A stretch of 64,000 nt of DNA from Escherichia coli (GCF_016026235.1 NZ_CP065613.1); one strand, 5' to 3'; positions 13,674-14,275 are shown, numbered from the stretch's first letter. Notes: generated by a model not told the origin, from the sequence alone. Numbers and translations are program-made.

Positions 13674-14015
13674 ATGAAACAGGCAACAAGAAAACCGACG
13701 ACACCCGGAGATATTCTTCTCTATGAATATCTGGAACCGCTCGCTTTGAAAATCAATGAGTTAGCAGAGTTGCTGCATGTTCATCGTAATAGCGTCAGTA
13801 CACTGATCAATAATAATCGTAAACTCACCACTGAAATGGCATTCCGTCTGGCGAAAGTTTTTGATACCACAGTCGATTTTTGGCTAAACCTTCAGGCGGC
13901 AGTTGATCTTTGGGAAGTTGAAAACAACATGCGCACCCAGGAAGAATTGGGACGGATTGAAACAGTGGCTGAATATTTGGCACGCCGTGAAGAGCGTGCA
14001 AAAAAGGTCGCGTAA
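13674..14015 (+). CDS. ybaQ: HigA-like XRE-family HTH DNA-binding protein (solitary antitoxin-like regulator)
   Basis: 113-aa ORF from MKQATRKP; helix-turn-helix with C-terminal HigA-type region; upstream in-frame ATG at 13620 is probably not used. Confidence 0.8.
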   Translation: MKQATRKPTTPGDILLYEYLEPLALKINELAELLHVHRNSVSTLINNNRKLTTEMAFRLAKVFDTTVDFWLNLQAAVDLWEVENNMRTQEELGRIETVAEYLARREERAKKVA

Positions 14016-14037
14016 GGCCAAAACATCGCTTCATCTC

Positions 14038-14275
14038 GTAGGCCGGATAAGGCGTTCACGCCGCATCCGGCATCCGAGCACCATTGCCTGATGCGACGCT
14101 TACGCGTCTTATCAGGCCTACAAACCTGTGCCTGAACCGTAGGCCGGATAAGGCGTTCACGCCGCATCCGGCATCCGAGTACCATTGCCTGATGCGACGC
14201 TTACGCGTCTTATCAGGCCTACAAACCTGAGCCTGAACCGTAGGCCGGATAAGGCGTTTACGCCGCATCCGGCAG
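14038..14275. repeat. BIME cluster: five REP units in alternating orientation
   Basis: Alternating gtaggccggataaggcgttcacgccgcatccggca and gcctgatgcgacgcttacgcgtcttatcaggcctac units between ybaQ and copA. Confidence 0.9.

What the first reader, a model, noticed from the sequence alone, without database searches (positions are those of the whole stretch)
13674..14275. Solitary HigA-like antitoxin homologue ybaQ followed by a five-unit REP cluster
ybaQ encodes an XRE-HTH protein of the HigA antitoxin type, but no HigB/RelE-like toxin ORF is present on either side (ybaP is upstream and divergent, REPs and copA are downstream). It may be an orphan antitoxin able to cross-regulate toxins elsewhere, or a remnant of a degraded module. 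The REP array immediately downstream could stabilise its transcript.
Basis: partly seen in the sequence, partly recalled or inferred. Interest (0 to 1): 0.25.

Follow-up and report, generated by a model that had tools for sequence, protein, structure and literature searches.

The report
Orphan antitoxin gene ybaQ plus REPs
This is the known E. coli gene ybaQ, the antitoxin/repressor half of a toxin-antitoxin pair whose toxin gene is missing in this strain but survives in other E. coli lineages, followed by an ordinary, strain-variable cluster of REP repeats; both features are real and already described.

Summary
ybaQ (13674-14015, 113 aa) is a HigA-family XRE-HTH protein (TIGR02607, 103.8 bits against a cutoff of 47.7). 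Five REP hairpins follow it (14038-14274). No toxin ORF or toxin fragment lies on either side.

The "remnant of a module" reading holds. In 1266 of 5426 complete E. coli genomes, a HigB-type toxin gene (higB-1) sits between ybaP and ybaQ. All 10 related loci found outside this site, plus phage-plasmid D6 and a Salmonella plasmid, carry the toxin directly upstream. Citrobacter has copA-REP-ybaP with no ybaQ, so the module was inserted in Escherichia.

In this window, the 403 nt holding promoter/operator, higB-1 and spacer are replaced by 70 nt of unrecognisable sequence. The same replacement occurs in K-12 and in cryptic-clade Escherichia. The conserved operator array is gone (-2.9 bits against 40-47).

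YbaQ itself stays intact. The K-12 protein is identical to that of the toxin-bearing strain, dN/dS is about 0.1, and the ClpXP degron is kept.

The REP array varies from 0 to 7 units between strains. REPs also occupy this gap in Citrobacter, so the array is not a ybaQ-specific device.

RASTA-Bacteria (2007) and Rousset et al. (2020) already published the core story. Verdict: already known, low interest.

The parts
13674..14015 (+). ybaQ coding sequence (113 aa plus stop), a HigA-family XRE-HTH antitoxin/repressor
   Evidence: ORF. TIGR02607 103.8 bits. HTH_3. PDB 2EBY, 2 residues different. Annotated ybaQ in RefSeq.
13719..13883 (+). Helix-turn-helix DNA-binding domain (residues 16-70). This allele carries A43T in the predicted recognition helix, a position that is A in all 14 other homologues compared
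   Evidence: Pfam HTH_3 residues 16-70. Alignment of 15 homologues.
13995..14012 (+). C-terminal RAKKVA, the ClpX recognition signal (C-motif-2) reported for YbaQ
   Evidence: Sequence. Motif table in PMC9775585. Used as a ClpXP tag in PMC2907309. YbaQ accumulates in a clpX null strain, PMC8652233.
13537..13597 (.). ybaP-proximal part of the divergent intergenic region. It is conserved in all E. coli alleles and in Citrobacter, and it ends at the shared breakpoint after ATGGAGTT(G)
   Evidence: Alignments.
13598..13667 (+). 70-nt segment that takes the place of the 403 nt (operator/promoter, higB-1, spacer) found in toxin-bearing strains. It holds whatever promoter now drives ybaQ and has no conserved operator
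   Evidence: Boundaries. Nearly the same segment (0-5 substitutions in 70 nt) in K-12, L002, L003 and L006. Operator PWM -2.9 bits against 40-47 in modules. Homology to the module promoter is not significant overall: p=0.38 global, p=0.017 for one local 22-nt match. No sigma-70 consensus match under the scan's rule.
14038..14072 (+). REP unit 1, starting 22 nt after the ybaQ stop codon
14085..14121 (-). REP unit 2, second sequence type, in inverted orientation
14139..14173 (+). REP unit 3
14186..14222 (-). REP unit 4
14240..14274 (+). REP unit 5
14290..14321 (-). Conserved hairpin directly 3' of the copA stop codon, with about 15 paired positions on the copA strand. It is also present in REP-less strains and is probably the copA 3' end structure
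   Evidence: Fold of -23.1 kcal/mol, z=-3.3 in the window and -24.7 kcal/mol, z=-4.1 in EC958. Alignment.
12742..13536 (-). ybaP (TraB/GumN family), the divergent neighbour (context only)
14331..16835 (-). copA (copper-exporting P-type ATPase), the convergent neighbour that shares the REP-containing 3' intergenic region (context only)

Best explanation
ybaQ is the orphaned antitoxin/repressor gene of a HigB-1/YbaQ type II toxin-antitoxin module of the HigBA/GraTA kind. The complete module has an operator-covered promoter, then higB-1, then ybaQ. It circulates on mobile elements such as D6-like phage-plasmids. It was inserted next to ybaP in an Escherichia ancestor, because Citrobacter has only copA-REP-ybaP at this site.

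In the lineage of this window, one event replaced the promoter/operator, higB-1 and spacer (403 nt) with 70 nt of unrelated-looking sequence. ybaQ was left intact.

Inferred mechanism today: YbaQ is made from a weak promoter that its own operator no longer controls. ClpXP keeps it at a low level through its C-terminal RAKKVA signal. As an XRE-HTH dimer it still recognises the TGCAC/GTGCA-type repeats that form the operator of complete modules. With no toxin in cis it is dispensable, yet it is kept under purifying selection. It is therefore available in trans as a DNA-binding protein and as a potential neutraliser of related HigB toxins.

The five REPs are an independent, strain-variable BIME-type cluster in the shared 3' region of the convergent ybaQ and copA. 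If they act at all, they most likely act as a bidirectional barrier to read-through and exonuclease decay.
For: Shown here:
- HigA-family membership.
- Toxin-bearing allele at the same locus: EC958 has higB-1 (PF05015, 111.6 bits) 35 nt upstream of ybaQ.
- Counts among 5426 complete genomes: higB-1 in 1266, ybaQ in 4833.
- All 10 homologous loci found outside the ybaP-copA site, plus phage D6 and a Salmonella plasmid, have a HigB-1 homologue directly upstream.
- Citrobacter has a 153-nt copA-ybaP gap with two REPs and no ybaQ.
- The same 70-nt replacement and the same junctions occur in K-12, this window and three other Escherichia species representatives.
- A 30-nt operator/promoter is conserved in 11 modules (40-47 bits) but scores -2.9 bits here.
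- K-12 (solitary) and EC958 (toxin-linked) YbaQ share one protein accession, WP_000806442.1.
- dN/dS among solitary alleles is about 0.09-0.11.

From papers:
- ybaQ knock-down is lethal only in strains carrying higB-1 and de-represses higB-1 (Rousset et al., bioRxiv 10.1101/2020.05.25.114553).
- YbaQ binds DNA in vivo by ChIP-exo and has a palindromic motif (PMC6237786).
- YbaQ is a ClpXP substrate.
- It was named a solitary antitoxin in 2007 (PMC2374986).
- REPs between convergent genes act as terminators and/or decay blocks in a context-dependent way (bioRxiv 10.64898/2026.03.23.713779).
Against: - The 70-nt segment cannot be shown to derive from the module (global alignment p=0.38). The event was a replacement, not a simple deletion, and its mechanism is unknown.
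- The intact allele sits in phylogroups B2 and F, inside E. coli, while cryptic-clade Escherichia share the toxin-less allele. A single loss therefore requires long-lived polymorphism or allele exchange by recombination. One search shows mosaicism at this locus.
- No present-day target or phenotype of the solitary protein is shown.
- ybaQ is absent from about 11% of genomes and is frameshifted in Escherichia sp. E1V33, so selection for it is not universal.
- This window's allele carries A43T in the recognition helix, which might alter DNA binding.
- The dN/dS values rest on very few substitutions.
Confidence: 0.82

Rival explanations
1. Domesticated transcription factor. After losing its toxin, YbaQ was kept because it regulates a small chromosomal regulon of its own, and its antitoxin ancestry is no longer relevant.
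For: ChIP-exo in K-12, a toxin-less strain, found reproducible YbaQ binding sites and a palindromic motif (PMC6237786). The protein is detectable in K-12 proteomes. dN/dS is about 0.1. Rousset et al. also suggest other functions.
Against: No target gene with an expression change is reported in the text I could read. Most peaks of such minor TFs were intragenic. A 2025 preprint lists ybaQ among regulators that had no prior perturbation expression data before its own CRISPR screen. The gene is lost or broken in several lineages. No operator-like site occurs in the 64-kb window.
Confidence: 0.3
2. Anti-addiction or immunity gene. The chromosomal orphan YbaQ is kept because it neutralises and/or represses the closely related HigB toxins of incoming D6/P1-like phage-plasmids. 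This would blunt their post-segregational killing.
For: D6 and about 90-kb plasmids in E. coli and Salmonella carry a module whose antitoxin is 74-78% identical to YbaQ and whose toxin is 80-81% identical to HigB-1. Their operator matches the family consensus. 76 of 5426 E. coli genomes carry the D6-type module, always on plasmids. The recognition-helix region is nearly identical between the two antitoxins.
Against: Cross-neutralisation is untested. Type II antitoxins are often specific to their own toxin. The C-terminal 20 residues differ between the two antitoxins. A prevalence of 1.4% may be too low to maintain selection. No co-occurrence statistics could be computed.
Confidence: 0.18
3. 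Neutral leftover. The gene has no remaining function and persists only because too little time has passed for decay.
For: ybaQ is non-essential without higB-1. It is deleted in about 11% of genomes, including a deletion that arose within the toxin-less allele (L015). In 347 genomes it is replaced by a dispersed repeat (L016). It is frameshifted in L006. Its operator is lost and its Shine-Dalgarno-like GGGAAG lies about 15 nt from the ATG.
Against: The toxin-less allele is shared by E. coli and cryptic Escherichia clades, so it is old, yet the ORF is intact with dN/dS of about 0.1. That is of the same order as the housekeeping neighbour ybaP, at about 0.05-0.07. The K-12 protein is identical to the toxin-linked protein.
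Confidence: 0.2
4. The toxin partner is still present but unrecognised, as a small or unusual ORF in the flanks or the REP region.
For: Several small ORFs of 33-97 aa overlap the intergenic regions.
Against: None has any Pfam match at E<=1. tblastn with HigB-1 finds nothing. The ORFs in 14020-14330 are read through REP repeats that vary from 0 to 7 units between strains. ybaQ is dispensable in toxin-less strains.
Confidence: 0.02

Closest known systems
higB-1/ybaQ module of E. coli phylogroups B2 and F (Rousset et al. 2020, bioRxiv 10.1101/2020.05.25.114553)
   Same: Same chromosomal locus between ybaP and copA. The YbaQ protein is 98.2% identical, and the K-12 orphan is 100% identical. Same HTH and same C-terminal degron.
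   Different: The window lacks higB-1 and the conserved operator/promoter. 403 nt are replaced by 70 nt. The window has a 5-REP array downstream where EC958 has none.
GraTA (HigBA-family) of Pseudomonas putida, PDB 6F8S and 6F8H
   Same: It is the only solved complex with significant matches to both partners. GraA matches YbaQ at E=1.2e-10 (only Coxiella VapI, 3TRB, E=1.3e-12, scores better among non-self antitoxin hits). GraT is the only solved hit for HigB-1, at E=2.8e-15. Toxin-first gene order and an XRE-HTH antitoxin.
   Different: A distant relative by sequence. YbaQ has a roughly 25-residue C-terminal extension ending in a ClpX signal. No toxin is present here.
HigBA of Proteus vulgaris plasmid Rts1 (PDB 4MCX, 6CHV) and E. 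coli CFT073 HigA (PDB 2ICT)
   Same: Same NCBIfam family, TIGR02607. HTH antitoxin encoded downstream of a RelE-superfamily toxin, with autorepression at palindromic operators that overlap the promoter. The last point is established knowledge of the family.
   Different: Only E=2e-6 to 9e-9 to YbaQ. The operator sequences differ. The window copy has neither toxin nor operator.
Toxin-antitoxin pair orf70/orf71 of phage-plasmid D6 and related plasmids of about 90 kb
   Same: Antitoxin 74-75% identical, toxin 80% identical to HigB-1, and the same operator consensus ATGCACTTGCGCACAGTGCA.
   Different: A complete, plasmid-borne module. The window copy is chromosomal and toxin-less.
REP/BIME clusters of E. 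coli, for example REP325/naRNA4 (PMC4550694; bioRxiv 10.64898/2026.03.23.713779)
   Same: Two alternating REP types, a 101-nt repeat period, an extragenic position between convergent genes, and a match to Rfam RF02564 above the gathering score.
   Different: Five units here against twelve in REP325. Nothing locus-specific is known. The copy number is polymorphic, from 0 to 7.

Membership tests
HigA-family antitoxin (NCBIfam TIGR02607) | Sequence match to the family model above its curated cutoff | tested here: met
   103.8 bits against a cutoff of 47.7, E=3.2e-30, covering model positions 2-80 of 81.
HigA-family antitoxin (NCBIfam TIGR02607) | XRE/Cro-type helix-turn-helix DNA-binding domain | tested here: met
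   Pfam HTH_3, 37.9 bits against a cutoff of 23, residues 16-70. A solved structure of the K-12 protein exists, PDB 2EBY.
HigA-family antitoxin (NCBIfam TIGR02607) | Neutralises a cognate HigB toxin | not testable with these tools
   Indirect evidence from the literature: ybaQ knock-down is lethal only in strains with intact higB-1. The K-12 orphan protein is identical to the toxin-linked one. The window allele differs by D24A and A43T.
HigA-family antitoxin (NCBIfam TIGR02607) | Proteolytically unstable antitoxin | tested here: met
   Only the presence of the sequence was tested. The C-terminal RAKKVA is retained. ClpXP dependence comes from papers.
Complete type II HigBA toxin-antitoxin module | HigB/RelE-superfamily toxin gene immediately upstream in the same operon | tested here: not met
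   No tblastn hit to HigB-1 in the window (best E=0.16, elsewhere). No Pfam hit for the flank ORFs. Only 137 nt separate ybaP from ybaQ. The feature is met at the orthologous locus in 1266 other genomes.
Complete type II HigBA toxin-antitoxin module | Autoregulatory operator repeats overlapping the module promoter | tested here: not met
   A PWM built from 11 modules scores 40-47 bits on those modules and -2.9 bits on the window's ybaQ upstream region. The best site in the 64 kb scores 6.6 bits, below the shuffle maxima of 7.6-13.3.
REP/BIME repeat cluster | Imperfect palindromes of about 35 nt, of the two E. coli REP sequence types, in alternating orientation | tested here: met
   Five units, with three of one type and two of the other, at a 101-nt period. 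Hairpins of about -21 kcal/mol, z = -3.9 and -7.1.
REP/BIME repeat cluster | Extragenic position and many copies per genome | tested here: met
   The array lies between the ybaQ and copA stop codons. There are 13 REP seed matches in the window. The 1-kb ybaP-ybaQ-REP query matches 12-61 places per E. coli genome, which reflects its REP part. Rfam naRNA4 hits score 86-87 bits against a gathering score of 59.5.

The most novel reading that the evidence does not exclude
Most E. coli retain the orphan YbaQ as an 'anti-addiction' immunity factor. Without a toxin or operator of its own, it would neutralise the 80%-identical HigB toxins of D6/P1-like phage-plasmids and bind their conserved operator. 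This would weaken post-segregational killing by these elements. The wholesale replacement of its own operator would then be adaptive, because it frees YbaQ expression from autorepression.
Probability: 0.15. Interest if true: 0.5.

Novelty: already known. Interest (0 to 1): 0.15.

Why it matters
The finding as stated carries little new information. ybaQ was called a solitary antitoxin in 2007, and its lost partner higB-1 was identified in 2020. The locus is still a clean natural example of how a type II module decays: the toxin and the operator go first, and the antitoxin is kept under constraint. The details added here give a concrete, cheap experimental handle on why orphan antitoxins persist. 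Those details are the shared replacement scar, the complete loss of the operator, the close relatives on D6-like phage-plasmids, and REP copy-number polymorphism independent of ybaQ.

Tried and rejected
1. Degraded toxin fragments in the window. tblastn of HigB-1 with word size 2 and E up to 100 gave nothing near ybaQ. An hmmscan of all flank ORFs found nothing.

2. Whether the 70-nt upstream segment is a diverged copy of the module promoter plus spacer. One collinear 22-nt local match has p=0.017. The global alignment to promoter plus spacer is no better than shuffles (p=0.38). I do not claim homology.

3. YbaQ operator sites elsewhere in the 64 kb. None exceeds the shuffle maxima.

4. The published ChIP-exo motif and site list for YbaQ. 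The supplementary files of PMC6237786 are not held, so I could not compare that motif with the operator consensus derived here.

5. A sigma-70 promoter or intrinsic terminator near ybaQ. The scan found no promoter in 13537-13673 and no terminator.

6. The rule that REPs very close to a stop codon reduce translation through trans-translation. I recall it from memory (Liang, Rudd and Deutscher 2015) but could not retrieve a source. The first REP here starts 22 nt after the stop codon, so I make no claim.

7. The ancestral state in E. albertii and E. fergusonii. I could not pick out their YbaP among the 90% clusters, so I used Citrobacter as the outgroup.

Full report
**What is in the sequence**

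The window is the E. coli ushA-ybaK-sroB-ybaP-ybaQ-copA region. The ORF at 13674-14015 (+) encodes a 113-aa protein. It matches Pfam HTH_3 and clears the curated cutoff of NCBIfam TIGR02607, 'HigA family addiction module antitoxin', at 103.8 bits against 47.7. It differs at two residues (D24A, A43T) from K-12 YbaQ, whose crystal structure is PDB 2EBY.

ybaP (12742-13536, -) is divergent, with 137 nt between the two start codons. copA (14331-16835, -) is convergent.

Between the ybaQ stop codon (14013-14015) and copA lie exactly five REP units: 14038-14072, 14085-14121, 14139-14173, 14186-14222 and 14240-14274. Two sequence types alternate with a 101-nt period. Each unit folds into a stable hairpin. 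The pairs reach the gathering score of the REP-derived Rfam family naRNA4.

**No toxin here, but a toxin at the same place in other strains**

tblastn with the cognate toxin finds nothing in the 64 kb; the best hit is E=0.16 and lies elsewhere. None of the small ORFs in the flanks matches any Pfam family.

A search of 5426 complete E. coli genomes showed a group of strains with a 'RelE/ParE family toxin' CDS between ybaP and ybaQ, for example ST131 EC958 and UTI89. That 100-aa protein is a PF05015 HigB-like toxin at 111.6 bits. Its gene ends 35 nt before ybaQ.

The toxin gene is present in 1266 genomes and ybaQ in 4833. By subtraction, roughly two thirds of E. coli carry ybaQ alone, about a quarter carry the pair, and about a tenth carry neither. 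The subtraction assumes that every higB-1 genome also has ybaQ.

**ybaQ belongs to a mobile two-gene module**

A scan of one genome per bacterial species returned 13 loci with close YbaQ relatives. The three at the ybaP-copA site are all Escherichia and lack the toxin. The ten at other sites all have a HigB-1 homologue (58-79% identity) immediately upstream. These ten come from Trabulsiella, Enterobacter, Kluyvera, Sodalis, Brenneria, E. albertii and other Escherichia.

The same pair sits on phage-plasmid D6 and on plasmids of about 75-95 kb in E. coli and Salmonella. In these, the antitoxin is 74-78% identical and the toxin 80-81% identical. The D6-type module is found on plasmids in 76 of the 5426 E. 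coli genomes and never on the chromosome.

In Citrobacter, the copA-ybaP gap is 153 nt, holds two REPs and has no ybaQ. The module is therefore an insertion specific to Escherichia. The solitary state in this window is derived from a two-gene ancestor.

**How the toxin was lost**

All complete modules share a 30-nt element that overlaps a promoter (-35 TTGCGC, 17 nt, -10 TAtnaT). Its consensus is ATGCACTTGCGCACaGTGCaTnaGTGCgnTAt, an array of TGCAC/GTGCA-type half-sites. This is the expected autoregulatory operator. Rousset et al. report that the higB-1 promoter contains the YbaQ motif and that ybaQ knock-down de-represses higB-1.

In the window, homology with the toxin-bearing allele stops after ATGGAGTTG (13597) and resumes at AAAACTATG (13668). 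In between, 403 nt of EC958 (operator/promoter, higB-1, spacer) correspond to 70 nt here.

A position weight matrix of the operator scores 40-47 bits on the modules and -2.9 bits on the aligned window sequence. Nothing in the 64 kb exceeds shuffled controls.

The 70 nt cannot be shown to derive from the module. One collinear 22-nt local match has p=0.017, but the global alignment has p=0.38. The event is best described as a replacement.

Nearly the same 70 nt (0-5 substitutions) and the same junctions occur in K-12, in FDAARGOS_943 and in three other Escherichia species representatives. This points to one old event, later spread by descent and recombination. Mosaicism is visible at the locus: the window's ybaQ differs by 1 nt from that of Escherichia sp. 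MOD1-EC7003, while the adjacent ybaP has dS=0.29.

**State of the surviving gene**

K-12 (toxin-less) and EC958 (toxin-bearing) encode the identical YbaQ protein, WP_000806442.1. Among toxin-less alleles dN/dS is about 0.09-0.11, of the same order as ybaP at about 0.05-0.07, though on few substitutions.

The C-terminal RAKKVA, listed as a ClpX recognition signal, is retained. YbaQ-derived tags are used as ClpXP degrons, and YbaQ accumulates in a clpX null mutant. YbaQ binds DNA in vivo in K-12.

The gene is nonetheless dispensable, and some lineages have lost it:
- It is essential only where higB-1 is intact.
- It is frameshifted in Escherichia sp. E1V33, which carries a complete module elsewhere.
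- It is deleted from within a toxin-less allele in strain WP8-S18-ESBL-07.
- It is replaced by a dispersed repeat in 347 genomes.

The window's allele carries A43T in the predicted recognition helix, at a position invariant in the 14 other homologues compared. The effect of this change is unknown.

**Most likely mechanism (inference)**

- YbaQ is now expressed from a weak promoter that its own operator no longer controls. The scan found no sigma-70 consensus, and the Shine-Dalgarno-like GGGAAG lies about 15 nt from the ATG.
- ClpXP turns the protein over.
- The protein can still bind the family operator and, probably, HigB-1-type toxins.

Whether it is kept for a small regulon of its own, as protection against related toxins of phage-plasmids, or simply has not yet decayed cannot be decided here. 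I rank these options as rivals.

**The REP array**

The number of REP units downstream of otherwise near-identical ybaQ genes varies between strains:

| Strain or locus | REP units |
|---|---|
| EC958, L003 | 0 |
| L002 | 1 |
| L006 | 3 |
| This window, K-12 | 5 |
| FDAARGOS_943 | 7 |

REPs also occupy the gap in Citrobacter, which has no ybaQ. A conserved hairpin next to the copA stop codon is present with or without REPs.

The array is thus a generic, polymorphic BIME cluster shared with the strongly regulated convergent copA. It is not a device tied to ybaQ. A recent preprint finds that REPs between convergent genes correlate with higher expression of both genes, but not with longer half-lives overall. 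Stabilisation of the ybaQ transcript is possible but unproven.

**Comparison with what is known, and verdict**

[quoted passage not shown] Rousset et al. (2020) identified higB-1 as its clade-specific partner, showed conditional essentiality, and proposed loss of the toxin in most phylogroups.

GraTA of P. putida is the only solved complex that matches both partners significantly. The gene passes the sequence tests for a HigA-family antitoxin. The locus fails two defining tests of a complete module, the adjacent toxin and the operator.

The finding is real and correctly read in its core. It is already known, and the interest is low.

The points added here are:
- the shared 403-to-70-nt replacement scar;
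- the complete loss of the operator;
- the Citrobacter empty site;
- the D6-like phage-plasmid relatives;
- the REP polymorphism.

Noticed in passing
L016 1398-1767 (E. coli RIVM_C037791), at the position corresponding to window 13597-14332: In 347 E. coli genomes the ybaP-copA gap holds a 370-nt, GC-rich segment with no convincing ORF instead of ybaQ. Its core of about 270 nt is an unannotated dispersed repeat with a median of 3 copies per genome. It shares essentially the same left breakpoint (after ATGGAGTT, within 1 nt) as the toxin-bearing and toxin-less alleles. No copy is in the window.
   Followed up: partly
L015 1338-1508 (E. coli WP8-S18-ESBL-07): This allele has lost nearly all of ybaQ by a deletion within the toxin-less, REP-less allele. 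The first 25 nt of the 70-nt segment are joined to the last 22 nt of ybaQ. This shows stepwise decay, with the toxin lost first and the antitoxin later.
   Followed up: yes
L006 3001-3323 and L007 2627-3315 (Escherichia sp. E1V33): The orphan ybaQ at the ybaP-copA site is frameshifted by a 10-nt and a 1-nt deletion. The same genome carries a complete D6-like HigB/YbaQ module on a 94.6-kb contig.
   Followed up: partly
window 13674-14015 versus L002, and window 12745-13536 versus L002: The window's ybaQ allele (A24, T43) differs by 1 nt from that of Escherichia sp. MOD1-EC7003, while the adjacent ybaP has dS=0.29. This indicates a recombination mosaic at the locus. Only 63 of 4833 E. coli records are at least 99% identical to this ybaQ allele.
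   Followed up: partly
window 12660-12743 (+): sroB sRNA (Rfam RF00368; known to me as ChiX/MicM) lies between ybaK and ybaP, at 82.1 bits against a gathering score of 44.
   Followed up: no
window 6905-6982, 28324-28548, 29049-29137, 42933-42999: Further Rfam hits: REP/naRNA4-type elements at 6905-6982, 28370-28447 and 28470-28548; ES036 at 28324-28366; AgrB antisense RNA at 29049-29137; STnc480 at 42933-42999.
   Followed up: no
window 13620-14015 (+): An in-frame upstream ATG would extend ybaQ to 131 aa in toxin-less alleles. It lies in the replaced 70-nt segment, has no Shine-Dalgarno sequence and has no counterpart in toxin-bearing alleles, so it is probably not used.
   Followed up: partly
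L012 2480-2560 and 2925-3000 (Brenneria sp. 4F2): The module in this genome is flanked by short tandem repeats. ACTTACGC is repeated about 4 times just upstream of the operator, and CCCGTAGA about 7 times in the toxin-antitoxin spacer.
   Followed up: no
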